A stretch of DNA of 64,000 nt from Escherichia coli (lineage in GTDB: Bacteria > Pseudomonadota > Gammaproteobacteria > Enterobacterales > Enterobacteriaceae): the NCBI RefSeq assembly GCF_013315695.1, contig NZ_CP054353.1; one strand, given 5' to 3'. The first letter of the stretch is position 1, and each line of letters begins with the position of its first letter. Positions 1 to 18,606 of the stretch are shown in pieces. Position numbers and translations under genes: made by a program. The notes under the pieces were generated by a model. It had not been told where the DNA came from, did no database searches, and saw only the letters and a program-made list of their open reading frames with translations.

Positions 1-1
1 A

Positions 2-1193: not shown

Positions 1194-1207
1194 CACAGGA
1201 GGCTGAG

Positions 1208-1937: not shown

Positions 1938-1952
1938 ACGCAGGGTGAAATT

Positions 1953-2528
1953 ATGGCGATAAAAGGGCTTGATCAGGCGATTGATAATCTGAGCCGGGTT
2001 CGTAAAAACGCCATTCCGGCGGCTTCAGCAATGACGATTAACCGCGTGGCCACAACGGCGATTAATCAGTCTTCATCACAGGTTGCCCGGGAGACAAAGG
2101 TACGCCGGAAACTGGTTAAGGAACGGTCCAGACTGAAACGGGCCACGGTCAGAAATCCGAATGCAAAAATTATCGTTAACCGCGGTGATCTCCCTGTGAT
2201 TAAGCTGGGGATCAGAATGCTGGGGCGTCGTCCGGACAGCATACTCAAAGCCGGTCAGCATCGTTATCAGCGGGCATTTATCCAGCGATTAAATAATGGG
2301 CGCTGGCATGTTATGCAACGTCTTCCCCAGGCCAGATATGAGGAGGGCAATGACGACAAGGGAAGGAAAAAGCGTAATCGCCTTCCCATTCAGGTGGTGA
2401 AAATCCCGATGGCGGCCCCACTGAAACAGGCATTTGATGAGAATGTTGACCGTATCCGGCGTGAACGCCTGCCTAAAGAACTGGCATACGCGCTGAAACA
2501 ACAACTGAGGATTGCGATAAAACGATGA
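1953..2528 (+). CDS. Z: Minor tail protein Z
   Basis: 191 aa; MAIKGL...RVRKNAIPAASAMTINRVA... matches lambda gpZ. Confidence 0.85.
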   Translation: MAIKGLDQAIDNLSRVRKNAIPAASAMTINRVATTAINQSSSQVARETKVRRKLVKERSRLKRATVRNPNAKIIVNRGDLPVIKLGIRMLGRRPDSILKAGQHRYQRAFIQRLNNGRWHVMQRLPQARYEEGNDDKGRKKRNRLPIQVVKIPMAAPLKQAFDENVDRIRRERLPKELAYALKQQLRIAIKR

Positions 2529-2920
2529 AACACACTGACATTCGTGCCGCAGTGCTGGATGCACTCGAGCAGCATGAACACGGGGCGACGCTGTTTGATG
2601 GTCGCCCCGTTGTTTTTGACGAAGAGGATTTTCCTGCGATCGCGGTTTATCTGACGGATGCAGAGTATACCGGTGAAGAGCTGGATGCAGATACCTGGCG
2701 GGCCACGCTGCATATTGAGGTGTTTTTACCGGCACAGGTACCGGATTCAGAGCTTGATCAGTGGATGGAAAGCCGGATTTACCCGGCGATGACCGCGATC
2801 CCGGCACTGGCAGGACTGATTACCACGATGGTTACGCAGGGCTATGAGTATCGTCGTGATGACGATATGGCGTTATGGAGTTCTGCAGATCTGACTTATT
2901 CCATTACATACGAGATGTGA
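2525..2920 (+). CDS. U: Tail terminator protein U
   Basis: 131 aa; [15 protein letters not shown]... matches lambda gpU; overlaps Z stop (ATGA). Confidence 0.85.
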
Positions 2921-2927
2921 GGACGAT

Positions 2928-3674
2928 ATGGCAACACCAAATCCCCTTGAGCCGGTAAAAGGTGCCGGTACCACTCTGTGGGTTTACAACGGCAAGGCTG
3001 ATGCTTACGCAAACCCGTTGTCAGACGATGGCTGGCAGCGACTGGCTAAGGTGAAGGATCTGACGCCGGGCGAGATGACGGCTGAACCCTACGATGATAA
3101 CTACCTGGATGATGAAGACGCGGACTGGACCGCGACCGGGCAGGGACAGAAATCTGCAGGTGATACCAGTTTTACGCTGGCCTGGAAACCGGGAGAGGAA
3201 GGCCAGAAAGGGCTTATAGGCTGGTTTGAAAGCGGCGATGTCCGGGCCTATAAAATCCGTTTTCCGAATGGCACGGTGGATGTGTTTCGTGGCTGGGTCA
3301 GCAGTATCGGTAAGGCCGTGACGGCGAAAGAAGTGATCACCCGCACGGTGAAAGTCACTAACGTGGGTAAACCTTCTGTAGCGGAAGAACGCAGCAAAAT
3401 TACGCCGGTCACTGCGATTAAGGTAACGCCGACAGGTACGGTTGAAAAAGGGAAAACAACCACCCTGACCGTTACTGTGGAACCGGAAAATGCAACGGAT
3501 AAGACATTCAGGGCGATTTCCGCCGATCCATCAAAAGCCACCATTAGCGTGAAAGATATGACGATTACTGTGACGGGGGTTAAGGATGGAAAAGTCAGCA
3601 TCCCTGTGATTTCCGGTAATGGTCAGTTTGCTGCGGTGGCTGAAATTACCGTTAATAATGTGCCGGGTGGCTAA
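2928..3674 (+). CDS. V: Major tail tube protein V with C-terminal Ig-like domain
   Basis: 248 aa; near-colinear with lambda gpV ([10 protein letters not shown]...[20 protein letters not shown]...). Confidence 0.9.
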
Positions 3675-3692
3675 AGAGCTGAGAGATAAGCG

Positions 3693-4124
3693 ATGTTCCT
3701 GAAAACAGAACAATTTGAATATAACGGTGTATCCGTCACGCTTTCTGAGCTGTCTGCGCTGCAGCGTATTGAGCATCTTGCCCTCCTGAAACGGCGGGCA
3801 GAAGAGGCTGAAGCCAGCGGCAACCTGCAGGTGAGTGTGGAAGATCTTGTCAGAACCGGCGCGTTTCTGGTGGCGATGTCCCTGTGGCATAACCATCCAC
3901 AGAAAACGCAGTCACCGTCAATGAATGAGGCCGTGATGAAGATAGAGCAGGAAGTGCTCACCACCTGGCCTGCCGATGCCATTGCCCGGGCGGAAGACGT
4001 GGTGTTGTGCCTGTCCGGGATGATCGAAGCTGTTCGTCCGGATACTGATATTACTGAAGTGGCGAAAAATAACACGCTGACTGATGATGATTTTTCTGCG
4101 GGAAAGTCTTCGACGGCGAGCTGA
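3693..4124 (+). CDS. G: Tail assembly chaperone G
   Basis: 143 aa; MFLKTEQFEYNGVSVTLSELSALQRIEHL... matches lambda gpG. Confidence 0.85.
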   Translation: MFLKTEQFEYNGVSVTLSELSALQRIEHLALLKRRAEEAEASGNLQVSVEDLVRTGAFLVAMSLWHNHPQKTQSPSMNEAVMKIEQEVLTTWPADAIARAEDVVLCLSGMIEAVRPDTDITEVAKNNTLTDDDFSAGKSSTAS

Positions 4125-4564
4125 ACTTTGCCCTCAGACTGGCGCGTGAGATGGGGAGACCCGACTGGCGCGCCATGCTTGCCGGGATGACATCCACCGA
4201 ATATGCCGACTGGCACCGTTTTTACCGCACGCATTATTTTCAGGATACCCAGCTGGATATGCATTTTTCCGGGCTGACGTACGCTGTACTCAGCCTGTTT
4301 TTTTGCGATCCGGATATGCATCCCTCTGATTTCAGTCTGCTTGTCCCCCGGCATGAGGAAGAGCAGGTGGAGAGGCCGGATGAGGACAAAATGCTGATGC
4401 AGAAAGCGGCAGGACTTGCCGGAGGCGTCCGGTTCGGTGGGGACGGAGGGCGCGATATTTTATCGTCTGCGGATGTGGCGGATGTCATGGTGGATGATGC
4501 CGCATTAATGATGGCTTCAGCGGGGATTCCGGGAGGTGTGAGATATGTCCCAGCCGGTTGGTGA
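3693..4564 (+). CDS. T: Tail assembly chaperone G-T fusion (via -1 frameshift at 4100-4106)
   Basis: T-frame ORF 4151-4564 resembles lambda gpT and overlaps the start of H; geometry identical to the lambda G/GT system. Confidence 0.7.
4100..4106 (+). other. Programmed -1 ribosomal frameshift slippery heptamer GGGAAAG (G to G-T fusion)
   Basis: Heptamer is read GCG-GGA-AAG in the G frame (frame 0); the downstream T ORF is in the -1 frame (frame 2) and is open from this point. Confidence 0.75.
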
Positions 4565-7118
4565 TCTTGTTATTGACCTTAGTCTGGATGCTGTCCGTTT
4601 CGATGAGCAGATGAGCCGGGTAAGGCGTCATTTTTCAGGTCTGGATACCGACGCCAGAAAAACCGCCAGTGCTGTTGAACAGGGCCTGAGCCGCCAGGCG
4701 CTGGCTGCACAAAAAGCAGGGATTTCCGTCGGGCAGTATAAAGCGGCCATGCGAACCCTGCCCGCACAGTTTACGGATATCGCCACGCAGCTTGCCGGTG
4801 GTCAGAATCCCTGGCTGATCCTGCTGCAACAGGGCGGTCAGGTGAAGGACTCCTTCGGCGGGATGATCCCCATGTTCAGGGGGCTTGCCGGTGCGATCAC
4901 CCTGCCGATGGTCGGGGTCACCTCGCTGGCGGTGGCGACAGGTGCGCTGGTGTACGCCTGGTACCAGGGAGATTCCACGCTTTCAGCGTTTAATAAAACT
5001 CTGGTTCTTTCCGGTAATCAGTCCGGACTGACTGCCGATCGTATGCTGACTCTCTCAAGAGCCGGGCAGGCAGCAGGGCTGACGTTTAACCAGGCGAGAG
5101 AGTCACTGGCAGCCCTGGTGAATGCCGGTGTGCGTGGTGGTGAACAGTTTGATGCCATCAACCAGAGTGTCGCGCGTTTTGCGTCTGCATCCGGTGTGGA
5201 GGTGGATAAAGTCGCTGAAGCCTTCGGGAAGCTGACCACTGACCCGACGTCGGGACTGATGGCGATGGCGCGCCAGTTCCGTAACGTGACGGCAGAGCAG
5301 ATTGCGTATGTTGCACAGCTGCAGCGTTCCGGAGACGAGGCCGGGGCATTGCAGGCGGCGAACGATATCGCCACGAAAGGCTTTGATGAGCAGACCCGTC
5401 GCCTGAAAGAAAACATGGGAACACTGGAGACCTGGGCGGATAAAACAGGGAAGGCATTCAAATCGATGTGGGATGCCATTCTGGATATCGGTCGTCCGGA
5501 ATCCTCAGCGGATATGCTCGCCAGTGCGCAGAAGGCATTTGATGAGGCGGATAAAAAATGGCAGTGGTACCAGAGCCGGAGCCAGCGCCGGGGAAAGACC
5601 TCCTCTTTTCGTGCGAACCTTCAGGGGGCATGGGATGACCGGGAAAATGCCCGTCTGGGTCTGGCAGCGGCCACGCTGCAGTCGGATATGGAAAAAGCCG
5701 GTGAACTGGCGGCAAGGGACCGGGCTGAGCGTGAGGCGTCACAGCTGAAGTATACCGGAGAGGCGCAGAAGGCGTATGAGCGCCTGCAGACGCCGCTGGA
5801 TAAATATACCGCCCGTCAGAAAGAGCTGAATAAGGCCCTGAAAGACGGAAAAATCCTGCAGGCGGATTACAACACGCTGATGGCGTCGGCAAAAAAGGAT
5901 TATGAATCGACGCTGAAAAAGCCGTCAGGTGTGAAGGTGTCTGCCGGTGAGCGCCAGGAAGACCGGGCGCATGCAGCCATGCTGGCGCTTGAAACCGAGC
6001 TCAGGACGCTGGAAAAACACAGCGGTGTGAATGAGAAAATCAGCCAGCAGCGCCGGGATTTATGGGAAGCGGAAAATCAGTATGTGGTCCTGAAAGAGGC
6101 CGCCACGAAACGGCAGTTATCTGAGCAGGAAAAATCCCTGCTGGCCCATGAGAAAGAAACGCTGGAGTACAAACGCCAGCTGGCTGAGCTGGGCGACAAG
6201 ATAGAACACCAGAAGCGGCTGAATGAGCTGGCACAGCAGGCGGCGCGGTTTGAACAGCAGCAGAGCGCGAAGCAGGCGGCAATCAGCGCAAAAGCCCGCG
6301 GCCTCACTGACCGTCAGGCGCAGCGGGAGTCGGAAGAGCAGCGCCTTCGTGAGGTGTACGGTGATAATCCGGCTGCGCTGGCGAAGGCCACATCGGCACT
6401 GAAGAACACCTGGTCTGCGGAGGAGCAGCTTCGTGGAAGCTGGATGGCCGGGATGAAGTCCGGCTGGGGCGAGTGGGCGGAAAGTGCGACGGACAGTTTT
6501 TCGCAGGTTAAAAACGCGGCCACGCAGACCTTTGACGGTATTGCACAGAATATGGCGGCGATGCTGACCGGCAGTGAGCAGAACTGGCGTGGTTTCACCC
6601 GTTCCGTGCTCTCCATGCTGACAGAGATTTTTCTGAAGCAGGCAATGGTGGGGATTGTCGGAAGTATCGGCAGCGCCATTGGCGGGGCTGTTGGTGGTGG
6701 CGCATCCGCGTCAGGCGGTACAGCCATTCAGGCTGCGGCGGCGAACTTCCATTTTGCGACCGGAGGATTTACGGGAACCGGCGGCAAATATGAGCCAGCG
6801 GGGATTGTTCACCGTGGTGAATTTGTCTTCACGAAGGAGGCAACCAGCCGGATTGGTGTCGGCAACCTGTATCGTCTGATGCGCGGGTATGCGGAAGGTG
6901 GTTATGTCGGCGGTGCCGGAAGTCCGGCGCAGATGCGGCGGGCGGAAGGTATCCGGTTTGAGCAGAACAACAGCGTGGTGATTCAGAACGACGGTATCAA
7001 CGGACAGGCCGGGCCGCAGCTGATGAAAGCGGTGTATGAGATGGCCCGTAAAGGTGCGCAGGATGAGATTCAGGCGCAGATGCGTGATGGCGGCGTATTT
7101 TCCGGAGGCAGGCGATGA
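4545..7118 (+). CDS. H: Tail tape measure protein H
   Basis: 857 aa; colinear with lambda gpH over its full length (lambda H is about 853 aa). Confidence 0.95.
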   Translation: MSQPVGDLVIDLSLDAVRFDEQMSRVRRHFSGLDTDARKTASAVEQGLSRQALAAQKAGISVGQYKAAMRTLPAQFTDIATQLAGGQNPWLILLQQGGQVKDSFGGMIPMFRGLAGAITLPMVGVTSLAVATGALVYAWYQGDSTLSAFNKTLVLSGNQSGLTADRMLTLSRAGQAAGLTFNQARESLAALVNAGVRGGEQFDAINQSVARFASASGVEVDKVAEAFGKLTTDPTSGLMAMARQFRNVTAEQIAYVAQLQRSGDEAGALQAANDIATKGFDEQTRRLKENMGTLETWADKTGKAFKSMWDAILDIGRPESSADMLASAQKAFDEADKKWQWYQSRSQRRGKTSSFRANLQGAWDDRENARLGLAAATLQSDMEKAGELAARDRAEREASQLKYTGEAQKAYERLQTPLDKYTARQKELNKALKDGKILQADYNTLMASAKKDYESTLKKPSGVKVSAGERQEDRAHAAMLALETELRTLEKHSGVNEKISQQRRDLWEAENQYVVLKEAATKRQLSEQEKSLLAHEKETLEYKRQLAELGDKIEHQKRLNELAQQAARFEQQQSAKQAAISAKARGLTDRQAQRESEEQRLREVYGDNPAALAKATSALKNTWSAEEQLRGSWMAGMKSGWGEWAESATDSFSQVKNAATQTFDGIAQNMAAMLTGSEQNWRGFTRSVLSMLTEIFLKQAMVGIVGSIGSAIGGAVGGGASASGGTAIQAAAANFHFATGGFTGTGGKYEPAGIVHRGEFVFTKEATSRIGVGNLYRLMRGYAEGGYVGGAGSPAQMRRAEGIRFEQNNSVVIQNDGINGQAGPQLMKAVYEMARKGAQDEIQAQMRDGGVFSGGRR

Positions 7119-7444
7119 AAACCTTTCGCTGGAAAGTGAAACCGGATATGGAGGTGAACTCGCAGCCATCGGTGCGTGAAGTGCGTTTTGGTGACGGGTA
7201 CTCACAGCGTATGGCGGCAGGGCTGAATGCTGACCTGAAAACATACAGGGTGACGCTTTCCGTGACCCGGGAGGAGGCCCGGCATCTGGAAGCGTTCCTG
7301 GCAGAGCACGGTGGCTGGAAGGCATTTTTGTGGAAGCCACCCTATGCATACCGGCAGATAAAGGTGACCTGTGCCGGGTGGTCTGCGCGGGTCGGGATGT
7401 TGCGCGTTGAGTTCAGCGCGGAGTTTAAGCAGGTGGTGAACTGA
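7115..7444 (+). CDS. M: Minor tail protein M
   Basis: 109 aa; position and similarity to lambda gpM. Confidence 0.85.
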   Translation: MKTFRWKVKPDMEVNSQPSVREVRFGDGYSQRMAAGLNADLKTYRVTLSVTREEARHLEAFLAEHGGWKAFLWKPPYAYRQIKVTCAGWSARVGMLRVEFSAEFKQVVN

Positions 7445-8142
7445 TGCAGGATATTCGCGAAGAAAGTCTGAACGAGTCGGTTAAGTCAGAGCAGTCACCG
7501 CGGGTGGTACTCTGGGAAATCGACCTGACGGTACAGGGTGGTGAGCGGTATTTTTTCTGTAATGAGCTGAATGAAAAAGGGGAGCCGGTCACCTGGCAGG
7601 GGCGTAAGTATGAGGCATACCCGATTGACGGCAGCGGCTTTGAGATGAACGGCCGGGGCAGCAGTGCCAGACCGTCGCTGACGGTGTCCAATCTGTTCGG
7701 TCTGGTCACCGGGATGGCGGAAGACCTGCAGAGTCTGGTGGGGGCCACGGTGGTCCGCCGCCGGGTGTATGCCCGTTTTCTGGATGCGGTGAATTTCGTT
7801 GCGGGCAATCCGGAGGCGGACCCGGAGCAGGAGCTGAGTGACCGCTGGGTGGTGGAGCAGATGTCGCAGCTGACAGCCATGACGGCCTCGTTTGTGCTGG
7901 CCACACCGACCGAGACGGACGGGGCGCTGTTTCCCGGTCGCATCATGCTGGCGAACACCTGTATGTGGGATTACCGGGGAGATGAATGCGGGTATAACGG
8001 TCCTGCGGTGGCGGATGAGTTCGACAACCCCACCACGGATATCCGTAAGGACAGATGCAGCAAGTGCATGCGCGGGTGTGAGATGCGCGGCATGGTGGCT
8101 AATTTTGGCGGTTTCCTTTCCATTAACAAACTTTCGCAGTAA
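7444..8142 (+). CDS. L: Tail tip protein L (Cys cluster at C-terminus)
   Basis: 232 aa; lambda gpL-like; C-terminal CSKCMRGCEMRG cysteine motif. Confidence 0.85.
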   Translation: MQDIREESLNESVKSEQSPRVVLWEIDLTVQGGERYFFCNELNEKGEPVTWQGRKYEAYPIDGSGFEMNGRGSSARPSLTVSNLFGLVTGMAEDLQSLVGATVVRRRVYARFLDAVNFVAGNPEADPEQELSDRWVVEQMSQLTAMTASFVLATPTETDGALFPGRIMLANTCMWDYRGDECGYNGPAVADEFDNPTTDIRKDRCSKCMRGCEMRGMVANFGGFLSINKLSQ

Positions 8143-8147
8143 ATCCA

Positions 8148-8891
8148 ATGACACAGACAGAATCAGCGATTCTGGCGCATGCCCGGCGGTGTGTGCCTGC
8201 GGAGTCGTGCGGCTTAGTGGTGAGAACGCCGGAGGGGGAGCGGTATATCCCTTGTGTGAATATCTCTGCAGAGCCGGAGGCGTATTTTCGTATTGCACCG
8301 GAAGACTGGCTGCGGGCAGAGATGCAGGGGGAGATTGTGGCACTGGTCCACAGTCATCCCGGTGGGCTGCCCTGGCTGAGCGAGGCTGACCGGCGGCTGC
8401 AGATAAAAAGCGCACTGCCCTGGTGGCTGGTCTGCCGGGGTGACATTCACAAATTCCGCTGCGTGCCGCACCTGACGGGACGGCGCTTTGAGCACGGGGT
8501 GACGGACTGTTACACCCTGTTCCGGGATGCATACCATCTGGCGGGGACTGAAATGCCGGATTTTCATCGCGAGGATGACTGGTGGCGCAACGGTCAGAAC
8601 CTTTACCTGGACAATATGGCGGTCACCGGCTTTTACCGGGTGCCCCTGTCCTCTGCACAGGCGGGCGATATTCTGCTGTGCTGCTTTGGTGCTTCGGTAC
8701 CGAACCATGCCGCCATTTACTGCGGCAACGGTGAGCTGCTTCACCATCTGCCTGAACAACTGAGTAAACGGGAGAGGTATTCCGAAAAATGGCAACGACG
8801 AACGCATTCTGTCTGGCGTCACCGCCACTGGCACGCATCTGCCTTCACGGGGATTTGCAACGATTTGGCCGCCGCCTCAGCCTGTATGTGA
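8148..8891 (+). CDS. K: Tail tip assembly protein K (MPN/JAB plus NlpC/P60 domains)
   Basis: 247 aa; HSHP metal motif then Cys/His NlpC-like region; lambda gpK-like; 3' end overlaps I. Confidence 0.8.
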   Translation: MTQTESAILAHARRCVPAESCGLVVRTPEGERYIPCVNISAEPEAYFRIAPEDWLRAEMQGEIVALVHSHPGGLPWLSEADRRLQIKSALPWWLVCRGDIHKFRCVPHLTGRRFEHGVTDCYTLFRDAYHLAGTEMPDFHREDDWWRNGQNLYLDNMAVTGFYRVPLSSAQAGDILLCCFGASVPNHAAIYCGNGELLHHLPEQLSKRERYSEKWQRRTHSVWRHRHWHASAFTGICNDLAAASACM

Positions 8892-9469
8892 ACACGGCAG
8901 CGGAAGCCATTCGCGCCCTGTCGATGCAGATGCCGGGCTTTCGCCGTCAGATGAACGAAGGCTGGTACCAGATACGTATTGCCGGTGATGACACGGCACC
9001 GGAGGCGGTGTATGCCCGTCTTCACGAACAGCTGGGTGAGGGAACGGTCATCCACATTGTGCCGCGACTGGCCGGGGCCGGAAAGGGTGGACTGCAGATT
9101 GTGCTGGGGGCGGCAGCCATCGTGGGCTCTTTCTTCACGGCCGGAGGCTCGATGGCGTTATGGGGTACAGCCCTGAGTGCCGGTGGTTTTTCTGCCACCA
9201 CGATGCTGTTTTCACTGGGTGCCAGCATGATACTGGGCGGAGTGGCCCAGATGCTGGCCCCGAAGGCAAAAACACCGGATTACCGCGCAACGGATAACGG
9301 CAGACAGAACACGTACTTTTCCTCGCTGGATAACATGATTGCCCAGGGGAACCCGATGCCGGTGCCTTACGGGGAAATGCTGGTTGGCTCCCGCCGTATA
9401 TCCCAGGACATCAGCACCCGTGATGAAGGCGGGGGCGGAAAGGTCGTGGTTATCGGGCGGCAGGGGTAA
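8789..9469 (+). CDS. I: Tail tip assembly protein I
   Basis: 226 aa; ...ARICLHGDLQRFGRR... and Gly-rich hydrophobic middle match lambda gpI. Confidence 0.85.
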   Translation: MATTNAFCLASPPLARICLHGDLQRFGRRLSLYVNTAAEAIRALSMQMPGFRRQMNEGWYQIRIAGDDTAPEAVYARLHEQLGEGTVIHIVPRLAGAGKGGLQIVLGAAAIVGSFFTAGGSMALWGTALSAGGFSATTMLFSLGASMILGGVAQMLAPKAKTPDYRATDNGRQNTYFSSLDNMIAQGNPMPVPYGEMLVGSRRISQDISTRDEGGGGKVVVIGRQG

Positions 9470-9473
9470 AAAG

Positions 9474-9515
9474 AATAAAAAAATCCCGCAGTGATCGCGG
9501 ACAGGAACTGCGGGA
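9474..9515 (-). terminator. Hairpin with adjacent A-run (terminator-like when read on minus strand) in the I-J intergenic insert
   Basis: TCCCGCAG ... CTGCGGGA 8-bp stem, 16-nt loop, preceded on + strand by AATAAAAAAA. Confidence 0.35.
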
Positions 9516-9680
9516 GAGTTACGAAGATTAAGTGTAAGGAATTATTCTTATATCACGACAAAAAAATTAACGCAGAGAAATTATACGCGCCACAGTCAGT
9601 TTGTGAAAATGTGAAGATATTCAGAATTTTTATGCCATTACCGGTTTTAACCAACAGGATTATCGGTGGGCATGAAAGAA

Positions 9681-9715
9681 AACCCCGGTATCTGCTGATA
9701 CCGGGGTTTCTCTTT
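9681..9715. terminator. Perfect 11-bp palindromic hairpin flanked by A-rich and T-rich tracts (bidirectional terminator-like)
   Basis: AACCCCGGTAT-ctgctg-ATACCGGGGTT followed by TCTCTTT. Confidence 0.35.
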
Positions 9716-9812
9716 AGCATGGCAGAAATGTGTTTCATGCTTTTCGGGCGAAGGATATCCGACTTCTGTACGGAATGGCAAGTGGCGGTTAATTTATTCA
9801 GGGGAAGGCTGT

Positions 9813-12800
9813 ATGGGAAAAGGTGGCGGTAAGGCACACACGCCTCGTGAGGCGAAGGATAATCTCAAATCCACGCAGATGATGAGTGTGATTGATGCGA
9901 TTGGTGAGGGACCGATAGAAGGTCCGGTGAAGGGACTGCAGAGTATTCTGGTGAACAAAACCCCGCTGACGGACACGGACGGTAATCCCGTGATACACGG
10001 TGTGACTGCGGTCTGGCGTGCCGGGGAGCAGGAGCAGACACCACCGGAAGGCTTTGAGTCCTCCGGAGCTGAAACCGGACTGGGCGTGGAAGTGACGAAG
10101 GCAAAACCGGTGACGCGCACCATTACGTCCGCGAACATTGACCGCCTGCGGGTTACCTTCGGGGTGCAGTCACTGGTGCAGACCACGTCAAAGGGCGACC
10201 GTAATCCTTCCTCTGTCCGGATTCTGATTCAGTTACAGCGTAATGGCCGCTGGGTGACGGAAAAGGATGTCACCATTAACGGCAAGACCACCTCGCAGTT
10301 CCTGGCCTCGGTGATTCTGGATAATCTGCCTCCCCGGCCCTTTAACATCCGGATGGTCAGGGAGACGGCGGACAGCACCACGGACCAGCTGCAGAATAAG
10401 ACGCTGTGGTCGTCATACACCGAAATCATCGATGTGAAACAGTGCTACCCGAACACGGCCATTGTGGGGCTGCAGGTGGATGCGGAGCAGTTCGGCGGCC
10501 AGCAGATGACGGTGAACTACCATATCCGCGGTCGCATCATCCAGGTGCCGTCAAACTATGACCCGGAAAAACGCACGTACAGTGGTATCTGGGACGGCAG
10601 CCTGAAACCGGCATACAGCAACAACCCGGCCTGGTGTCTGTGGGACATGCTGACTCACCCGCGCTACGGCATGGGAAAACGTCTGGGGGCGGCGGATGTG
10701 GACAAGTGGGCGCTGTATGCCATCGGGCAGTACTGCGACCAGACGGTCCCGGATGGTTTCGGGGGGACCGAGCCGCGGATGACCTTTAATGCGTACCTGG
10801 CACAACAGCGTAAGGCGTGGGACGTTCTCAGTGATTTCTGCTCTGCGATGCGCTGTATGCCGGTATGGAACGGCCAGACGCTGACGTTCGTTCAGGACCG
10901 TCCGTCGGATGTGGTGTGGCCGTACACCAACAGCGATGTGGTGGTGGATGATAACGGCGTGGGTTTCCGCTACAGCTCCAGTGCCCTGAAGGACCGGCAC
11001 ACGGCAGTGGAGGTGAATTACACCGACCCGCAGAACGGCTGGCAGACCTCCACGGAACTGGTGGAAGACCCGGAAGCCATACTGCGCTACGGACGCAACC
11101 TGCTGAAGATGGACGCGTTCGGCTGTACCAGCCGCGGTCAGGCCCACCGTGCCGGGCTGTGGGTGATAAAGACCGAACTGCTGGAAACGCAGACGGTGGA
11201 TTTCACGCTTGGGTCACAGGGGCTGCGTCACACACCCGGTGACATCATTGAAATCTGTGATAACGACTATGCCGGGACCATGACCGGCGGACGTGTCCTG
11301 TCCATCGATGCCGCCAGCCGTACCCTGACGCTGGACCGGGAGGTGACACTGCCGGAGACCGGCACGGCCACTGTTAATCTGATTAACGGCAGCGGTAAGC
11401 CGGCGAGCGTGGCCATCACCGCACACCCCGCGCCTGACCGGATACAGGTCAGCACCCTGCCGGATGGTGTGGAGACATACGGTGTGTGGGGACTCTCCCT
11501 GCCGTCACTGCGTCGTCGCCTGTTCCGCTGTGTCTCCATCCGGGAAAACACGGACGGCACCTTTGCCATCACGGCGGTGCAGCACGTACCTGAAAAAGAA
11601 GCCATCGTGGATAACGGGGCCCGCTTTGAGCCGCAGTCAGGCACCCTGAACAGCGTTATCCCACCGGCAGTGCAGCACCTGACGGTGGAGGTGAGCGCAG
11701 CTGACGGCCAGTATCTGGCGCAGGCTAAATGGGACACGCCGCGGGTGGTGAAGGGCGTGCGCTTCAGTCTGCGCCTGACCAGTGGTAAGGGAACGGATGC
11801 CAGACTGGTGACCACCGCCATCACCGCAGACACGGAGCACCGTTTCAGCGGCCTGCCACTGGGGGAATACACCCTGACGGTGCGGGCCATTAACAGCTAC
11901 GGCCAGCAGGGCGAACCTGCGACCACCACCTTCCGGATTAACGCGCCTGCAAAACCCGCCACCATTGAGCTGACGCCGGGGTATTTTCAGATAACGGCGG
12001 TACCGGTGCTGGCGGTGTATGACCCGACGGTGCAGTTTGAATTCTGGTTCTCAGAAAAACGCATCACGAACACGGCACAGGTGGAAAAATCTGCCCGTTA
12101 TCTGGGGACCGGCAGTCAGTGGACTGTCCAGGGGAGCCGGATTAAGCCGGGGACGGATTTCTGGTTTTACGTGCGAAGCGTCAACCTGGTGGGAAAATCT
12201 GCTTTTGTGGAAGCCAGCGGGCAGCCCAGCAATGATGGTGAAGGGTATCTGGAAATTTTCCGGGGGCTGATAGATGAGACGCTTCTGGGGCAGGCACTGA
12301 AAGAGCGCATTGATGCTTCAGCGCTGCGTACGGAGGTCACGCAACTGGAAGAAGATATCCGTCAGCGGATGGACACGGATATCGCAGAAGTGACCCGGAA
12401 AATCGGGAAGGCGGAAAACAGCCTCACGCAGCTGGTTGCGAAAAAGAATGAGGACCAGACACTGGCCATCGCGCAGGTGAGCCAGAAAGTGGACCGGGTG
12501 AGCAGTGAAATCTCACAGACTGTCAGCCAGGGGCAGTCAGAAAACGCCCGACAGATAGCACAGGTCCGCCAGTACGTGGATAAAAAAGGGAGTGAAATTA
12601 CCTCGACCACGGATAAAAAGCTGGGTGACCAGGCCGTGACCATACAGCAAATCCAGCGGGTTCAGTCAGACACGCGCAATGAGCTGAATGCCATGTATAT
12701 GCTGAAGGTGCAGAAAACAAAAAACGGTATTCCCTATGTGGCCGGGATTGGCGCGGGGATTGAGGATGTTGATGGTCAGACCCTGAGTAACATTCTGCTG

Positions 12801-13505
12801 CAGGCCGATCGCATTGCGATGATTACCCCGGAGAACGGCAACACCACGCCGCTGTTTGTGGCGCAGGGGAATCAGCTGTTCATGAACGACGTGTTCCTGA
12901 AGCGACTGTTTGCGGTGAGCATCACGTCATCCGGCAATCCTCCGACGTTTTCCCTGACGCCGGATGGCAGGCTGACAGCCCGCAATGCGGATATCAGTGG
13001 AGCCATCACGGCGAATACCGGCACGCTCAATAATGTCACCATTAACGAGAACTGTGTCATCAGAGGGAAACTGTCTGCAAACCAGATTGAAGGCGATCTC
13101 GTTAAAACAGTGGGTAAGGCTTTCCCCCGTGACTCCCGTGCACCGAAGCGTTGGCCATCAGGAACCATTACCGTCAGGGTTTATGACGATCAGCCGTTTA
13201 ACCGGCAGATTGTTATTCCGGCGGTGGCTTTCAGCGGTGCCAGACATGAGCGGGAGAACAGCGATACTTATTCGTCATGCCGCCTGATAGTGAAGAAAAA
13301 CGGTGCTGAAATTTATAACCGTACCGCGATGGATAATACGCTGGTTTACAGTGGTGTTATTGATATGCCTGCTGGTCGCGGCCACATGACGCTGGAGTTT
13401 TCTGTATCAGCATGGTGGGTAAATGGCTGGTATCCCACAGCAAGTATCAGCGATTTGCTGGTTGTTGTGATGAAGAAAGCCACTGCAGGCATCACGATTA
13501 GCTGA
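9813..13505 (+). CDS. J: Host specificity / central tail fibre protein J
   Basis: 1230 aa; N-terminal 850 aa and C-terminal 270 aa colinear with lambda gpJ; extra coiled-coil segment in between. Confidence 0.95.
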
Positions 13506-13523
13506 ATTTTATAACCCCAATAC

Positions 13524-13548
13524 GGGCGCCAGAAATGGCGCCTTTTTT
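13524..13548 (+). terminator. Rho-independent terminator after J
   Basis: GGCGCC-agaaat-GGCGCC stem then TTTTTT. Confidence 0.6.
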
Positions 13549-13572
13549 ATTGCAGAAAAGCGAGAGGTAATT

Positions 13573-14172
13573 ATGCGTAAATTATGTGCAGCCATTTTGT
13601 CCGCAGCCATCTGTCTGTCCGTATCCGGTGCGCCTGCATGGGCGTCTGAACATCAGTCCACACTGAGCGCGGGGTATCTTCATGCCCGTACGAACGCTCC
13701 CGGCAGCGATAATCTGAACGGGATTAACGTGAAATACCGTTATGAGTTTACGGACACGCTGGGGCTGATTACGTCCTTCAGTTATGCCAATGCTGAGGAT
13801 GAGCAAAAAACGCACTACAACGATACCCGCTGGCATGAAGATTCCGTGCGTAACCGCTGGTTCAGCGTGATGGCGGGGCCGTCTGTACGCGTGAATGAAT
13901 GGTTCAGCGCGTATGCGATGGTGGGTGTGGCTTACAGCCGTGTGTCGACTTTCTCCGGGGATTATCTCCGCGTAACTGACAACAAGGGGAAAACGCACGA
14001 TGTGCTGACCGGAAGTGATGACGGTCGCCACAGCAACACGTCTCTGGCGTGGGGGGCTGGCGTGCAGTTTAACCCGACCGAATCCGTGGCCATTGATATT
14101 GCTTATGAAGGCTCCGGTAGTGGTGACTGGCGCACTGACGGTTTCATCGTGGGTGTCGGTTATAAGTTCTGA
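13573..14172 (+). CDS. lom: Outer membrane protein Lom (Ail/PagC family)
   Basis: 199 aa; nearly colinear with lambda Lom including signal peptide. Confidence 0.9.
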   Translation: MRKLCAAILSAAICLSVSGAPAWASEHQSTLSAGYLHARTNAPGSDNLNGINVKYRYEFTDTLGLITSFSYANAEDEQKTHYNDTRWHEDSVRNRWFSVMAGPSVRVNEWFSAYAMVGVAYSRVSTFSGDYLRVTDNKGKTHDVLTGSDDGRHSNTSLAWGAGVQFNPTESVAIDIAYEGSGSGDWRTDGFIVGVGYKF

Positions 14173-14198
14173 TTAGCCAGGTAACACAGTGTTATGAC

Positions 14199-14225
14199 AG
14201 CCCGCCGGTTCAGGCGGGCTTTTTT
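14199..14225 (+). terminator. Rho-independent terminator after lom
   Basis: AGCCCGCC-ggttca-GGCGGGCT stem then TTTTT. Confidence 0.65.
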
Positions 14226-14236
14226 GTGGAGTGGAT

Positions 14237-16303
14237 ATGGCAGCAGTAAAAATCTCAGGTGTGCTGAAAGATGGTGCGGGAAAACCAATACAGAACTGCA
14301 CTATTCAACTGAAGGCAAAGCGTAACAGCACCACGGTACTGGTGAACACGGTGGCCTCTGAAAATCCGGATGAAGCCGGGCGTTACAGCATGGATGTTGA
14401 GTATGGCCAGTACAGCGTCACCCTGCTGGTTGAAGGTTTTCCACCTTCACATGCCGGGACCATTACCGTCTATGAAGGTTCCAGACCAGGTACGCTGAAT
14501 GATTTTCTCGGTGCCATGACGGAGGATGATGTTCGTCCGGAGGCACTGCGCCGTTTTGAGCTGATGGTGAATGAAGTGGCACGTCATGCCGGAGCGTCAT
14601 CACAGAGTGCAGCGGCGGCAAAGAAATCCGAAACGGCAGCAGCCTCATCGAAGAATGCGGCGAAAACCTCAGAAACGAATGCAGCTAACAGCGCACAGGC
14701 GGCAGCGGCCTCGCAGACTGCATCGGCAAACTCCGCGACAGCAGCCAAAAAATCAGAAACCAGCGCGAAAAATAGCGAGACAGCCACAAAGGCCAGCGAA
14801 AAAAACGCAAAATCCAGCCAGACGGCAGCGAAAACCAGTGAGACGAATGCCAAAGACAGTGAAGCCAACGCAAAGGTGAGCGAAACAGCGGCGGCGAACT
14901 CGGCGAAAGCATCGGCAGCAAGCCAGACGGCAGCAAAAGCAAGTGAAGATGCTGCCAGAGAATACGCAAACCAGACAGCAGAGCCGTACAGATATGTTTT
15001 ACAGCCGCTGCCGGATGTGTGGATACCCTTTAATGATTCGCTGGATATGATTACGGGCTATTCTCCGGGTTATAAAAAAGTGAAGATTGGTGATAATGTG
15101 GTTCAGGTTGCCAGTGATAAACAGGTTAATTTCAGTCGCGCATCAACGGCAACATATATCAACAAATCTGGCGAACTGAAAACGGCGGAAATTAATGAGC
15201 CACGATTTGAGTGTGATGGCCTGCTTATTGAGGGGCAAAGAACGAACTTCTTCCCGAACAGTACAGACCCTTCGAAGTGGAATAAGTCAACTTCACTGGA
15301 CGTTACAGAAACAGGCACAGATAGTTTCGGGTTTAATTATGGCCGGTTTGTCGTACAGGATTCGATTGTTGGTACAAGTAAAGCGCATACCATTATCGGA
15401 CTGTATTCGAGTACCGGAGGGGTTGATACTTCAGGGGACGAAAAGCATGTAACTATATCCTGTCGGGTAAAAAGTGAAGTTGATAATATCGCCGTTCGTA
15501 TTTTATTTGAACATTATGATGGGGAGGTAAGGACATCAATAGGAGCAGCAAACCTGAACCTTACCACCCGCATAATTAGCAAGACAGGTCAGACAAGCCG
15601 TGTTACAGCAAGGTCTGTTAAGGATGATGCAACTGGCTGGATATTTTTTGAGGCTACATTAAAAGCAGATACAACAGAAAATACGGTTGGTGGTTTTGTC
15701 CAGTATTCTCCGGATACAGGGCAGATGGTTGCATCAGGGGATTATCTCGATGTAACCACTCCACAGATTGAGGCTGGTACAGGCGCATCATCTTTTATTG
15801 TTACGGGGACGGCACCGGTAACGCGGGCAAGCGATATGGTTACAGTTCCGATTAAGAATAATCTTTATAATCTTCCTTTTACGGTTCTTTGTGAGGTACA
15901 TAAGAACTGGTATAAAACGCCAAATGCAGCACCGCGTGTTTTTGACACATACCGGCATCAGGCAGATGCGGGGATCGTAATGGGGTTTGGTTCATCAGGT
16001 GGGTACGACGGTTTTCCGTATTGCGATATAGGTGGTTCAGACCGACGAATAAATGAAAATGCCGGGCTGGAAAAAATGCTTATTGGTATGCGGGTAAAGT
16101 CCGAACGGTCCACATGTGTAGTCAGTAACGGTAAGTTAAGCAGCGAAACTAAAACCAAATGGGAATATATCCGGAGTACAGCAACCATTCGCATTGGTGG
16201 ACAAACTACAGCAGGATTACGCCATTTATTTGGGCATGTGAGGAATTTTCGTCTCTGGCATAAAGAGCTAACAGATGCGCAGCTTGGGGAGGTTGTGGAG
16301 TGA
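14237..16303 (+). CDS. stf: Side tail fibre protein, lambda Stf-like N-terminus with divergent C-terminal receptor-binding domain
   Basis: First 120 aa match lambda Stf (AVKISGVLKDG...), then Ala/Ser/Thr-rich SETNA/AAKxSE repeats, then about 400 aa with no lambda counterpart; start set at ATG 14237. Confidence 0.75.
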   Translation: MAAVKISGVLKDGAGKPIQNCTIQLKAKRNSTTVLVNTVASENPDEAGRYSMDVEYGQYSVTLLVEGFPPSHAGTITVYEGSRPGTLNDFLGAMTEDDVRPEALRRFELMVNEVARHAGASSQSAAAAKKSETAAASSKNAAKTSETNAANSAQAAAASQTASANSATAAKKSETSAKNSETATKASEKNAKSSQTAAKTSETNAKDSEANAKVSETAAANSAKASAASQTAAKASEDAAREYANQTAEPYRYVLQPLPDVWIPFNDSLDMITGYSPGYKKVKIGDNVVQVASDKQVNFSRASTATYINKSGELKTAEINEPRFECDGLLIEGQRTNFFPNSTDPSKWNKSTSLDVTETGTDSFGFNYGRFVVQDSIVGTSKAHTIIGLYSSTGGVDTSGDEKHVTISCRVKSEVDNIAVRILFEHYDGEVRTSIGAANLNLTTRIISKTGQTSRVTARSVKDDATGWIFFEATLKADTTENTVGGFVQYSPDTGQMVASGDYLDVTTPQIEAGTGASSFIVTGTAPVTRASDMVTVPIKNNLYNLPFTVLCEVHKNWYKTPNAAPRVFDTYRHQADAGIVMGFGSSGGYDGFPYCDIGGSDRRINENAGLEKMLIGMRVKSERSTCVVSNGKLSSETKTKWEYIRSTATIRIGGQTTAGLRHLFGHVRNFRLWHKELTDAQLGEVVE

Positions 16304-16578
16304 GAGATTTCACGTTGCGTTTCAGTGATAAAGCAGATTTCAGGGCATTTCTCAGGAAACTTAACTGGGAAGAGGACGAAGAGCTGCAGAATGCCGTTCT
16401 GGTTGATGAGATTGGTTTTACGTTCAGGGAGACAGATGTTTCTGATGACGGAGAACCAGAATACACGCGAAACGAAGGGTACTTTGTTAATATCCGTCTT
16501 CTTGACGATGGATTTGATGATTCCGTGTTCCGTGAGTGGGTGGTTACACCAGAGCGCCCGCTCAGGGAGTGGTTTTAA
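16300..16578 (+). CDS. Hypothetical acidic protein (92 aa) downstream of stf
   Basis: ORF overlapping stf stop by 4 nt (translational coupling); occupies the tfa position but is shorter and unlike lambda Tfa. Confidence 0.4.
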   Translation: MRDFTLRFSDKADFRAFLRKLNWEEDEELQNAVLVDEIGFTFRETDVSDDGEPEYTRNEGYFVNIRLLDDGFDDSVFREWVVTPERPLREWF

Positions 16579-16587
16579 GGATAGCAG

Positions 16588-16875
16588 ATGGATATCACGT
16601 CGATACTTCATGCGCTTTGTGCCGTAGCGGTGCAGGTACTGGCTGGTCTTTTTACCGGAAACTGGGCTTACGGTGCGATAGCCGGTTGTACGTTCTTCAT
16701 TGCGCGTGAACACACCCAGGCAGAATATCGCTGGATTGAAATGTTTGGGCATGGCAAGAGGATTAACATGCCGTGGTGGGGCGGTTTTGATCCGCGCGTG
16801 TGGGATGTGGCAAGCCTGATGGATTTTGCTGTGCCGGTGGTGGCGTGTCTGCTGATCTGGATGTTGATCCGTTAA
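16588..16875 (+). CDS. Hypothetical small membrane protein (95 aa)
   Basis: Two predicted hydrophobic segments at N- and C-termini; last ORF before att. Confidence 0.4.
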   Translation: MDITSILHALCAVAVQVLAGLFTGNWAYGAIAGCTFFIAREHTQAEYRWIEMFGHGKRINMPWWGGFDPRVWDVASLMDFAVPVVACLLIWMLIR

Positions 16876-17224
16876 ATATAAAAAGTAAAAAGCCGCAGTA
16901 ACTTGTCATGACAGGATACTGCGGCTGGCTGGTTAACTTTCGATAGTGCGAGTATTGAATGATTTCCAGCTGTTACTGATTTTATATAACTGCAGTGGAA
17001 TTATTCAACACACAGGCAAAACGGAATAAGCTGAGAAAAAAAGCGTGCTTTCCCAATCTGGGGTAAATCACATCTGAATGACACCTGAAAACAGGTGGTG
17101 GCCTCAAGAAGGCTTGGAATATTCTTCTTTAATGTTATGTAATTTATTGATTTTTCGTGTACGATTTTAAGACATTTATTCCAAGAAAAATTTTTAACTC
17201 TTTGATTTTTCGACTCTGTATCAT

Positions 17225-17286
17225 CGGTCTCGAAAACCGGAGTAGGGGCAACTCTACCGGGGGTTCAAATCCCCCTCTCTCCGCCA
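17225..17286 (+). tRNA. Partial tRNA-Ser (3' 62 nt, serU-like, anticodon loop to CCA end): prophage attachment-site repeat, not a full gene
   Basis: CGGTCTCGAAAACCGGAGTAGGGGCAACTCTACCGGGGGTTCAAATCCCCCTCTCTCCGCCA matches the 3' part of E. coli tRNA-Ser(CGA) as I recall it; the 5' acceptor/D-arm is absent. Confidence 0.7.
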
Positions 17287-17830
17287 CTTTATCAATGACT
17301 TATCTCCCGACTTCCCGCCTTGCTTTTCCTAAACAGAACAATCGTAGAATATTCTTGAAGGGTTAGATCGTCACTGTTTTCTGTTCGATACTGTGACATT
17401 CAGCACTTGATTCGCTATGGAGCTGACAGGAAGGTTTCGAGCGAAAATCTACAGTTATTCAGTCGTTTTCTTATCGATCACCATTATTCTTTTAGACATT
17501 GATCCTATGAAACTGCCGCAAAGTTGCTGGCGGGAACTGAAGTTGCGTAGAGAAGGGGTCAATAATTGAGCCAAAAAAGGAACGCGGCCGTCAGATTAAA
17601 GCCGCGGGACAAAGTCCATAATTTCCAAGAGTTGTTGAATTTCCCAGCTTTTTTGAAAGCCTTTGTATTATACTAACAAGTAAAAAAGGTTTAAACACCA
17701 AAATTAACCTATATTTCTGGTTAGCTTTACCATGACAGATGACTTGCTCCTGGAAACATTTGCGCTGCCAGTCTGTATGGCTGAGTTGTGTATTTATTGT
17801 TCGCCTTTTTCGCAGTTTTTTTCTACAGAC

Positions 17831-17955: not shown

Positions 17956-18606
17956 TCAATGAGACATCATCTCCTCGACCACTTCTTCGCTACTCAACTG
18001 ATAGGGATAATACGTTGGCCAGTTTTCCATTTCATTCAATAAAGATTGCTGGGAATCATTACCCATAAAAATGTGAAAATGAGATGATTTTCGTGGTGCA
18101 ATTATATGATCGCTAAATTGTATATATTTAGGGGCTTTGCTTTCAGGATCTTTACATTCGAATAAGTAACGAACGCCTTTCTTGCCTGATTTATAGGTGA
18201 GTATTTTGTATCCATCGTAATCATATTTACAGGATGTTGTTTCATTATTTCTATGGAATTCGACAATGCCGTCCTCAATGCCAATCATTTCGATATCTGT
18301 CGCATAACCTTTGCGATAATAATCTTTAATTTCAGCAAATGGTTTGGTTTTATCTGCATCCGCTTTCTTCTGAAAGACGGGATCAAGTTTGCCACTTTGC
18401 AGTAAAGGGTAAACGGATTGCCAGACTCCATCCCAGTCACTGAGCGTTCGGTTTTGTACATTGGTATCATCAAAAACACCATTAGCAGCTTTTTGTTCGA
18501 CCTCTGTTAAGGGTTTGCCGTGTGAGTGATGACCATGCGAAAAGGCAGGAGCGCTAACAATAAAGACACCTAAAGCAACAGCCAGTTTATGAAGACGAAT
18601 CGCCAA
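17956..18606 (-). CDS. zinT: Metal-binding periplasmic protein ZinT (YodA)
   Basis: 216 aa; His-rich N-terminus HGHHSHG after signal peptide; matches E. coli ZinT. Confidence 0.9.

What the first reader, a model, noticed from the sequence alone, without database searches (positions are those of the whole stretch)
17225..17286. Lambda-like prophage boundary marked by a tRNA-Ser 3' fragment adjacent to zinT
A 62-nt segment identical to the 3' part of a serine tRNA (anticodon loop to CCA) lies about 350 bp after the last phage ORF, without the 5' half of the gene. This is the typical footprint of integration into a tRNA 3' end, with the intact gene presumably at the other prophage end outside the window. 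It defines the phage-host junction about 670 bp from zinT.
Basis: partly seen in the sequence, partly recalled or inferred. Interest (0 to 1): 0.35.

Follow-up and report, generated by a model that had tools for sequence, protein, structure and literature searches.

The report
Prophage end at serU tRNA
The 62-base piece of a serine tRNA gene is the displaced original 3' end of the E. coli serU gene and marks the right-hand junction (attR) of a lambda-like prophage; this is a common and already described arrangement.

Summary
Window 17225-17286 (+) is 62/62 identical to nt 29-90 of E. coli K-12 serU, the tRNA-Ser(CGA) gene, from the second base of the anticodon stem to CCA. The 5' part is absent and ARAGORN calls no tRNA.

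Collinearity with the K-12 chromosome starts exactly at 17225. To the left lie lambda-like capsid-to-tail-fibre genes.

The window's source genome is not in the collection. In its nearest relative, MSB1_4I (host part 99.989% identical), an intact serU lies 47.5 kb away, 27 bp from a tyrosine integrase gene, with mtfA beyond it as in K-12.

Two paired bases in the tRNA variable arm tell the copies apart:
- The fragment has the host pair A48:U59.
- The rebuilt gene has the phage pair G48:C59.
- Strand exchange therefore occurred within nt 29-47, the anticodon stem-loop.

I built the predicted attP from the window's phage arm and the integrase-side arm. It occurs intact in 11 genomes, and in the two I inspected it joins two tandem prophages.

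serU is a published prophage site: SE11 carries a 47.6 kb prophage there with a 77-nt duplication, and GenBank KU052038 annotates the same 62-nt pseudo-tRNA. About 21% of complete E. coli genomes have this integrase next to serU. The finding is ordinary and of low interest.

One side observation: the same attR, with 278 bp of host flank, also travels as a passenger inside some lambda-attB phages.

The parts
17225..17286 (+). Displaced native 3' part of serU (tRNA-Ser CGA, nt 29-90). It is a non-functional pseudo-tRNA and forms the core plus B' side of the prophage attR.
   Evidence: It is 62/62 identical to K-12 serU nt 29-90. ARAGORN makes no tRNA call. It carries the host-type A48/T59 pair. 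The same 62-nt pseudo tRNA-Ser is annotated in GenBank KU052038.
17225..17243 (+). 19-nt stretch (tRNA nt 29-47, anticodon stem-loop) that is identical in attP and attB. Strand exchange must have occurred inside it.
   Evidence: In the four-way att alignment, attL and POP' carry G48/C59, while attB and this attR carry A48/T59. Positions 48 and 59 pair in the variable-arm stem.
17029..17224 (+). Phage-side arm of the attachment site (P arm of attP), non-coding and AT-rich.
   Evidence: It has no K-12 homologue. It is contiguous with the integrase-side arm in intact POP' junctions in 11 genomes; the two inspected join tandem prophages. It is shared with the SerU-LTIIb prophage end.
17113..17122 (+). 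CTTGGAATAT, a candidate arm-type integrase binding site (inferred).
   Evidence: The motif, allowing up to 1 mismatch, occurs only twice in the 64-kb window, and both copies are in this arm. Two tandem copies meet the same criterion in the integrase-side arm of attL; a third adjacent copy (CTTGGAATTA, 2 mismatches) was read by eye.
17176..17185 (-). Second copy of the candidate arm-type site (CTTGGAATAA), in inverted orientation.
17287..17302 (+). First 16 nt after CCA. They are partly similar to the phage sequence after CCA at attL and extend the imperfect duplication to 77-78 nt.
   Evidence: BLAST of window 17225-17302 against attL gives 91% identity over 78 nt; see also the alignments. SE11 reports a 77-nt duplication at serU (PMC2608844).
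17287..17733 (+). Host flank downstream of serU, collinear with K-12.
   Evidence: Window 17225-17733 matches K-12 at 96.3% identity.
1..16875 (+). Late-gene half of the lambda-like prophage: major capsid, FI, tail genes, tape measure, L/K/I, J, Lom, tail fibre and two small ORFs. It is cut by the start of the window.
   Evidence: ORFs; RefSeq annotation of the 99.4% identical MSB1_4I region.
16891..16926 (+). Perfectly abutting 18-nt inverted repeat just after the last phage ORF, resembling a terminator.
   Evidence: repeat I1.
17956..18606 (-). zinT, the first host gene after the junction.
   Evidence: Pfam ZinT at E = 1.3e-84; K-12 collinearity resumes at 17956.

Best explanation
The segment is the right attachment junction (attR, P-O-B') of a roughly 47.5 kb lambda-like prophage integrated into the 3' part of the serU tRNA-Ser(CGA) gene.

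The phage attP carries its own copy of tRNA nt 29-90 plus about 15 nt. A phage tyrosine integrase exchanged strands between attP and the chromosomal gene inside the anticodon stem-loop (nt 29-47). This had two consequences:
- At the integrase end (attL, outside the window) the host 5' part was joined to the phage-supplied 3' part, so the cell keeps an intact serU.
- The original host 3' part was pushed about 47.5 kb away and sits here, without a promoter or a 5' half, as an inert pseudo-tRNA next to the host flank leading to zinT.

Shown here: the identity and boundaries of the fragment, the empty site, attL in near-identical genomes, intact attP, and the provenance of the polymorphic bases. 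Inferred: the exact cleavage positions, the arm-type binding sites (CTTGGAATAT), and that the far end in the window's own genome matches that of its relatives.
For: Fragment and boundary
- The fragment is 62/62 identical to K-12 serU nt 29-90, and no tRNA is called.
- K-12 collinearity begins exactly at 17225, runs to 17733 and resumes at zinT.
- Lambda-like late genes fill 1-16875.

Far end in close relatives
- The host part of the window is 99.989% identical to MSB1_4I. Between 14000 and 20125 the two differ at a single position, near 18000 in zinT, so the junction itself is identical.
- In MSB1_4I an intact tRNA-Ser(CGA) lies 27 bp from a tyrosine integrase gene with an adjacent DUF4224 gene, followed by mtfA and asnT as in K-12.
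- The integrase has Pfam Phage_integrase and SAM-like domains.

Provenance of the two copies
- attL carries G48/C59 and the window fragment carries A48/T59. The two positions pair in the variable arm.

attP
- A synthetic attP built from the window's P arm and the attL P' arm is found intact at 98-99% identity in 8 of the 11 complete genomes that hold at least 80% of it (89-92% in the other three).
- In the two inspected it joins two tandem lambdoid prophages and carries G48/C59.
- The circular Citrobacter phage Chris1 has an attP that starts at the same tRNA nt 29, next to its integrase.

Prevalence and precedent
- 1140 of 5426 complete E. coli genomes have mtfA-serU-integrase.
- Published serU prophages: PMC2608844 (47.6 kb, 77-nt duplication), PMC8767318, PMC7067040, and GenBank KU052038.
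Against: - The integrase end is not in the window, and the window's exact source genome is not in the collection. The best match is 99.5% identical, so attL is inferred from close relatives.
- The integrase gene is annotated as frameshifted in MSB1_4I and in the two tandem-lysogen genomes, so this prophage may no longer be able to excise.
- The same P arm, fragment and 278 bp of flank also occur as a passenger inside phages that integrate elsewhere. The fragment alone is therefore not diagnostic; here the extended host synteny decides.
Confidence: 0.95

Rival explanations
1. The fragment is not the junction of this prophage. Instead it is the 'fossil attR' passenger module (P arm + 62 nt + 278 nt of serU flank) that some lambdoid phages carry in their b region, so the true prophage boundary would lie elsewhere.
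For: Phages ev099, mEp332 and PhiR70_1 match window 17029-17300; for ev099 and mEp332 the match extends to 17564, at 96-97% identity. The module joined to an AraC-family gene is present in 524 of 5426 complete genomes. In strain TUM1887 it sits inside a prophage next to ybhB/bioA.
Against: In the window the K-12 collinearity does not stop at 17564. It continues to 17733 and then through zinT, msrQP and hiuH. No AraC/IS module follows. In the near-identical MSB1_4I the order is mtfA, serU, integrase, prophage, fragment, zinT, which is the K-12 order with a prophage inserted.
Confidence: 0.02
2. The fragment is a decayed or truncated second tRNA-Ser gene produced by a deletion or duplication unrelated to phage integration.
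For: Taken alone, a 5'-truncated tRNA gene could arise by deletion.
Against: The truncation point, nt 29, is the same in four sequences: the attP of a free phage (Chris1), the SerU-LTIIb prophage end, and the two POP' junctions inspected. The upstream sequence is phage attP arm, not host DNA. The two polymorphic bases partition as reciprocal recombination predicts.
Confidence: 0.01
3. The resemblance to a tRNA is due to chance.
For: None.
Against: The match is 62/62 identical. The 3' 25-mer is unique in the window, and 0 of 100 shuffles gave a match even with 3 mismatches allowed.
Confidence: 0

Closest known systems
Prophage PP_SE11-6 of E. coli SE11, integrated at serU (PMC2608844, Table 2)
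   Same: Same integration gene (serU), nearly the same size (47.6 kb against about 47.5 kb in MSB1_4I), and the same duplication length (77 nt against 77-78 nt here).
   Different: I did not compare the sequences directly. SE11's phage type was listed as 'Unclear', whereas this prophage has lambda-like late genes.
Escherichia phage SerU-LTIIb (GenBank KU052038.1)
   Same: The prophage right end has an identical 62-nt tRNA-Ser pseudogene that starts at the same nucleotide. It is preceded by a homologous P arm (from window 17109) and followed by the same host flank.
   Different: That prophage carries LT-IIb toxin genes and different tail fibres. Its host retains yodB, which is absent from the window.
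Bacteriophage lambda attR (P-O-B') and the general scheme of tyrosine-integrase integration into tRNA genes through the anticodon stem-loop (textbook knowledge; Williams 2002, Nucleic Acids Res 30:866, cited from memory)
   Same: Four features match: int-proximal attL and tail-proximal attR; a repeated candidate arm-type motif in both arms, in tandem copies next to int; regeneration of the tRNA by a phage-borne 3' copy; and an identity block running from the anticodon stem to the 3' end.
   Different: Lambda itself uses a 15-bp core between gal and bio, not a tRNA gene. Binding of the integrase to the proposed arm sites is not shown here.
Citrobacter phage Chris1 attP (ON041214.1, circular complete genome)
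   Same: Its attP carries tRNA-Ser nt 29-90 starting at the same base, about 50 bp from a tyrosine integrase gene.
   Different: It has a different host genus, a longer integrase (about 431 aa), different arms, and an A48/T59 variable arm.

Membership tests
attR of a tRNA-gene-integrating temperate phage (tyrosine integrase) | The fragment equals the 3' part of a resident tRNA gene and lacks the 5' part. | tested here: met
   It is 62/62 identical to serU nt 29-90; the upstream sequence is unrelated to the tRNA; ARAGORN makes no call.
attR of a tRNA-gene-integrating temperate phage (tyrosine integrase) | An unoccupied site exists in which the tRNA gene is contiguous with the same flank (attB). 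| tested here: met
   In K-12, mtfA-serU-flank-zinT is collinear with the window from 17225 onward.
attR of a tRNA-gene-integrating temperate phage (tyrosine integrase) | An intact tRNA gene and a tyrosine integrase gene lie at the opposite prophage end, forming a direct repeat. | tested here: inconclusive
   The feature is met in MSB1_4I, whose host part is 99.989% identical to the window, and in the seven other close relatives that appear among the rows listed. That end lies outside the window, so it could not be checked in the source genome itself.
attR of a tRNA-gene-integrating temperate phage (tyrosine integrase) | The two phage arms are contiguous around the core in the unintegrated form (attP, P-O-P'). 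| tested here: met
   The synthetic attP was recovered intact in 11 complete genomes; the two inspected show it as a junction between tandem prophages. An analogous attP occurs in the circular phage Chris1.
attR of a tRNA-gene-integrating temperate phage (tyrosine integrase) | Sequence differences between attP and attB segregate reciprocally into attL and attR. | tested here: met
   G48/C59 occurs in POP' and attL; A48/T59 occurs in attB and in the window's attR.
attR of a tRNA-gene-integrating temperate phage (tyrosine integrase) | Integrase-dependent integration and excision demonstrated experimentally. | not testable with these tools
   This needs an induction experiment with PCR for attP and attB.
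Functional tRNA gene | A complete cloverleaf with acceptor stem, D arm, anticodon arm and T arm. | tested here: not met
   ARAGORN finds 0 genes in the window. There is no Rfam tRNA hit. The 5' acceptor strand and the D arm are missing.
Lambdoid (lambda-like) prophage | Lambda-type late gene order: capsid, FI, head-tail joining genes, V, G/T, tape measure, M/L/K/I, J, Lom, side tail fibre. | tested here: met
   The RefSeq product names come from the 99.4% identical MSB1_4I region. I did not re-derive these names with profile searches.
Passenger 'fossil attR' module of ev099/mEp332-type phages | The serU flank ends 278 nt after CCA and is joined to an AraC-family gene and IS remnants inside a prophage at another locus. 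| tested here: not met
   In the window the flank continues past 17564 to 17733 and then to zinT, and no AraC module follows.

The most novel reading that the evidence does not exclude
A complete attR for the serU-type integrase (P arm, core and B') travels as a passenger inside lambda-attB-type phages (ev099, mEp332, PhiR70_1) and is present, joined to an AraC-family gene, in about 10% of complete E. coli genomes. In principle this copy could still be recognised by serU-type integrase and excisionase. It could then act as a secondary attachment site (prophage-in-prophage integration), or as a partner for long-range recombination with attL at serU, driving chromosomal rearrangements. The displaced fragment in the window could likewise serve as the entry point for the tandem lysogens seen in two inspected genomes, out of 11 that carry the same junction.
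Probability: 0.1. Interest if true: 0.4.

Novelty: already known. Interest (0 to 1): 0.1.

Why it matters
The result fixes one boundary of a prophage to the nucleotide. The phage-host junction lies at or within 19 nt after 17225. This is useful for annotation: the 62 nt should be labelled as a pseudo-tRNA/attR, not as a gene.

It also shows that the serU copy this lineage expresses is a host-phage chimera with a compensated G48:C59 variable-arm pair.

Beyond that, it is a textbook case at a site occupied in roughly a fifth of complete E. coli genomes. It opens no new question.

One caution is mildly useful. The same arm, fragment and flank also occur inside phages that integrate elsewhere. A tRNA fragment alone should therefore not be used to call a prophage boundary without checking synteny.

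Tried and rejected
- Rfam at relaxed E-value over 16900-17900. The only hits were an antisense 'Plastid-psbl-rps4' match, the tmRNA T arm and sX4. All are trivial echoes of the tRNA-Ser T arm and variable arm, and none reaches its gathering score.
- Search for a free phage with the same integrase in the phage collection. Only two 'partial genome' records turned up (vB_EcoS-689R5 and vB_EcoM-606R7). Both are prophage cut-outs that include host mtfA and asnT, so they show attL rather than attP. attP was obtained instead from tandem-prophage junctions and from phage Chris1.
- Link between the fossil module and IS1397. I wondered whether the right end of the fossil module (window 17564) coincided with the IS1397 insertion seen in many relatives. 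It does not: that IS sits between zinT and msrQ.
- A recollection about O157 Sakai. I remembered prophage Sp10 as lying at serU. PMC2608844 places Sp10 at the same integration locus as PP_SE11-2, which its Table 2 lists as ttcA, so I dropped the comparison.
- The first literature search was swamped by 'serum' because terms match at the start of a word. I repeated it with whole-word matching.
- The Jobling paper on SerU-LTIIb is not in the library, so only the GenBank record is cited.

Full report

Yes. Window 17225-17286 on the + strand is CGGTCTCGAAAACCGGAGTAGGGGCAACTCTACCGGGGGTTCAAATCCCCCTCTCTCCGCCA. It is 62/62 identical to nt 29-90 of the 90-nt serU gene of E. coli K-12, tRNA-Ser with anticodon CGA. 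In the folded tRNA the anticodon stem is nt 28-32/40-44 and the anticodon is nt 35-37. The piece therefore starts at the second base of the anticodon stem and runs to CCA.

The 28 nt upstream have no similarity to the acceptor or D arms. ARAGORN finds no tRNA in the whole window. Rfam finds only rseX at gathering score. The 3' 25-mer is unique in the window, with no match in 100 shuffles even when 3 mismatches are allowed.

The last phage-side ORF ends at 16875, 349 nt upstream. zinT (Pfam ZinT, E = 1.3e-84) ends at 17956, 669 nt downstream.

**2. What surrounds it?**

Left of the fragment, 1-16875 encodes a lambda-type late region. The order is major capsid, FI, head-tail joining, tail tube, G/T chaperones, tape measure, L/K/I, J, Lom, and a tail fibre with two small ORFs. 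This comes from the ORFs and the RefSeq annotation of a 99.4% identical region.

Right of it, BLAST against K-12 shows collinearity that begins exactly at 17225, runs to 17733 and resumes at 17956 with zinT, msrQ, msrP and hiuH. K-12 has no prophage here. Its order is mtfA, serU, yodB, zinT. So 17225 is where phage DNA ends and the host chromosome begins.

**3. The other end**

The window's source genome is not in the complete-genome collection. The best match is MSB1_4I (NZ_LR898874.1).
- The host part of the window (20125-64000) is 99.989% identical to it.
- The prophage part is 99.4% identical. Most of the differences fall in 7500-9500, and between 14000 and 20125 there is a single difference, near 18000 in zinT.

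In MSB1_4I an intact tRNA-Ser(CGA) lies 47,472 bp from the fragment. It is 27 bp from the 3' end of a tyrosine integrase gene with a DUF4224 gene next to it, and is followed by mtfA and asnT exactly as in K-12.

An unbroken 341-aa version of that integrase, from record ON470583, has Pfam Phage_integrase and N-terminal SAM-like domains and a C-terminal GHK...LIY motif.

A 901-nt probe spanning the integrase end, serU and mtfA is covered at 80% or more in 1140 of 5426 complete E. coli genomes. These include the seven other close relatives that appear among the listed rows, as well as ST131 strains EC958 and JJ1886.

**4. Mechanism, tested by a four-way att comparison**

The two serU copies in MSB1_4I and the window differ at two positions. 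The intact gene has G48 and C59, while the window fragment has A48 and T59, as K-12 does. Positions 48 and 59 pair with each other in the variable-arm stem, so the change is compensatory and the chimeric tRNA folds normally.

Site-specific recombination between a phage attP carrying G48/C59 and a host attB carrying A48/T59 predicts exactly this distribution, provided the crossover lies 5' of position 48.

To test the model I built the predicted attP from three pieces:
- window 17029-17224 (the P arm);
- the phage-type core;
- the integrase-side arm of the MSB1_4I attL.

I searched for this construct in the complete genomes. It is present intact over all 488 nt, at 98-99% identity in 8 of the 11 genomes that hold at least 80% of it. 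In the two genomes I inspected it joins the tail-fibre end of one lambdoid prophage to the integrase end of a second one. This is the P-O-P' junction expected in tandem lysogens. It has no tRNA 5' half and it carries G48/C59.

The alignment shows all four sites:

| Site | Source | Pair at 48/59 |
|---|---|---|
| attB | K-12 | A/T |
| attP (P-O-P') | strains noe1104 and 2013C-4991 | G/C |
| attL | MSB1_4I | G/C |
| attR | window | A/T |

Strand exchange therefore occurred within tRNA nt 29-47 (window 17225-17243), which is the anticodon stem-loop.

The phage copy continues about 15 nt beyond CCA with partial similarity (TCAAT.ACTTA). This makes a 77-78 nt imperfect duplication.

A free, circular phage genome, Citrobacter phage Chris1, has an attP that starts at the same tRNA nucleotide and lies about 50 bp from its integrase gene.

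The motif CTTGGAATAT, allowing up to 1 mismatch, occurs only twice in the 64-kb window. Both copies are in the P arm, at 17113-17122 (+) and 17176-17185 (-). It recurs in tandem in the integrase-side arm: two copies meet the same criterion, and a third adjacent copy (CTTGGAATTA, 2 mismatches) was read by eye. I take these as candidate arm-type integrase binding sites. This is inference by analogy with lambda's P1/P2 and P'1-3 sites, and binding is untested.

**5. Comparison with what is known**

serU is an established prophage site in E. coli.
- SE11 prophage PP_SE11-6 is 47.6 kb and lies at serU with a 77-nt sequence duplication (PMC2608844).
- STEC O121:H19 and O145:H28 carry prophages at serU (PMC8767318 and PMC7067040).
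- GenBank KU052038 ('phage SerU-LTIIb') annotates the very same 62-nt tRNA-Ser pseudogene at the prophage end. Its P arm is homologous from window 17109 and its flank is identical.

Regeneration of a tRNA gene by a phage-borne 3' copy, with crossover in the anticodon stem-loop, is the classical scheme for tyrosine integrases. I take this from my own knowledge (lambda paradigm; Williams 2002, not checked here). Nothing in the window departs from it.

**6. A twist worth recording**

The free phages ev099 and mEp332 carry window 17029-17564 at 96-97% identity inside their b region. PhiR70_1 matched the part of this module that my query covered, to window 17300. That stretch is the P arm, the host-type 62-nt fragment and 278 nt of the chromosomal serU flank. 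In these phages it is followed by an AraC-family gene, IS remnants and an integrase gene with no further serU-like sequence next to it.

In strain TUM1887 a prophage with this module sits next to ybhB/bioA, the lambda attB region. The fragment-flank-AraC junction is covered at 80% or more in 524 of 5426 complete genomes.

The simplest reading is that an ancestral serU prophage picked up its attR and adjacent host DNA by aberrant excision or recombination, and that this fossil now circulates in phages with another integration specificity.

This gives a rival reading for the window, namely that the fragment is such a passenger. The rival fails because the window's host collinearity continues past 17564 to 17733 and into zinT, and no AraC module follows.

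**7. Verdict**

This is a textbook attR at a very commonly occupied tRNA site, and equivalent junctions are already annotated in public records. Interest is low.

The residual uncertainty of about 5% exists only because attL lies outside the window and was checked in near-identical genomes rather than in the source genome. The integrase is annotated as frameshifted in relatives, so whether this particular prophage can still excise is unknown.

Noticed in passing
window 17029-17564; L004 (phage ev099) 3001-3535; L005 (mEp332) 3001-3535; L006 (E. coli TUM1887) 5502-6036: The whole attR (P arm, 62-nt serU fragment and 278 nt of host flank) is carried as a passenger inside free lambdoid phages ev099 and mEp332 (PhiR70_1 matched to window 17300). 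There it is joined to an AraC-family gene and IS remnants. In TUM1887 it lies inside a prophage next to ybhB/bioA. The fragment-flank-AraC junction occurs in 524 of 5426 complete E. coli genomes. It looks like host DNA captured by aberrant excision. I did not check whether this has been described.
   Followed up: partly
L013 5001-5488 (strain noe1104); L014 5001-5489 (strain 2013C-4991): Eleven complete E. coli genomes contain an intact P-O-P' (attP) junction. In the two inspected it lies between the tail-fibre end of one lambdoid prophage and the integrase end of another, which indicates tandem lysogens at serU.
   Followed up: partly
window 17734-17955: yodB (K-12 b1974, putative cytochrome b561) is absent. 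About 996 bp of K-12 sequence between the serU flank and zinT is replaced here by 222 bp of unrelated AT-rich sequence. yodB is present in the SerU-LTIIb host.
   Followed up: partly
window ~32600-64000: A Mu-like prophage runs off the end of the window. Its genes include a transposase (integrase catalytic domain), an ExeA-family protein, Gam, Mor, and portal, sheath, tube, tape measure and baseplate proteins. It interrupts dgcQ (yedQ), the diguanylate cyclase that regulates cellulose synthesis; the truncated dgcQ lies at about 31835-32584. This comes from the annotation of the 99.989% identical MSB1_4I region.
   Followed up: partly
window 7500-9500: Roughly 97 of the 119 differences from the MSB1_4I prophage cluster in the tail genes L, K and I. 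The rest of the 20 kb is nearly identical. This suggests a recombination patch acquired from another lambdoid phage.
   Followed up: no
MSB1_4I record 3150233-3151283 (outside the window); L013 5286-6336; L014 5287-6337: The serU-type integrase gene is annotated as 'frameshifted' in three independent genomes. A 341-aa ORF ending inside the tandem CTTGGAAT repeats is annotated as intact in ON470583. The integrase 3' end overlaps the candidate arm-type sites. Whether the frameshift call is real or an annotation artefact was not resolved.
   Followed up: no
window 26113-26203 (-): The sRNA rseX (Hfq-binding) is detected at 90.8 bits, in the expected chromosomal neighbourhood.
   Followed up: no
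window 60383-60935: An internal tandem duplication of about 260 nt (92% identity between copies) lies inside the tape-measure gene of the Mu-like prophage. It was seen as offset self-matches in BLAST.
   Followed up: no
window 9470-9812: A gap of about 340 nt separates the tail assembly gene (I-like, ends at 9469) from gpJ (starts at 9813). In lambda these genes abut. The gap holds an unannotated 113-aa GTG ORF at 9491-9832.
   Followed up: no
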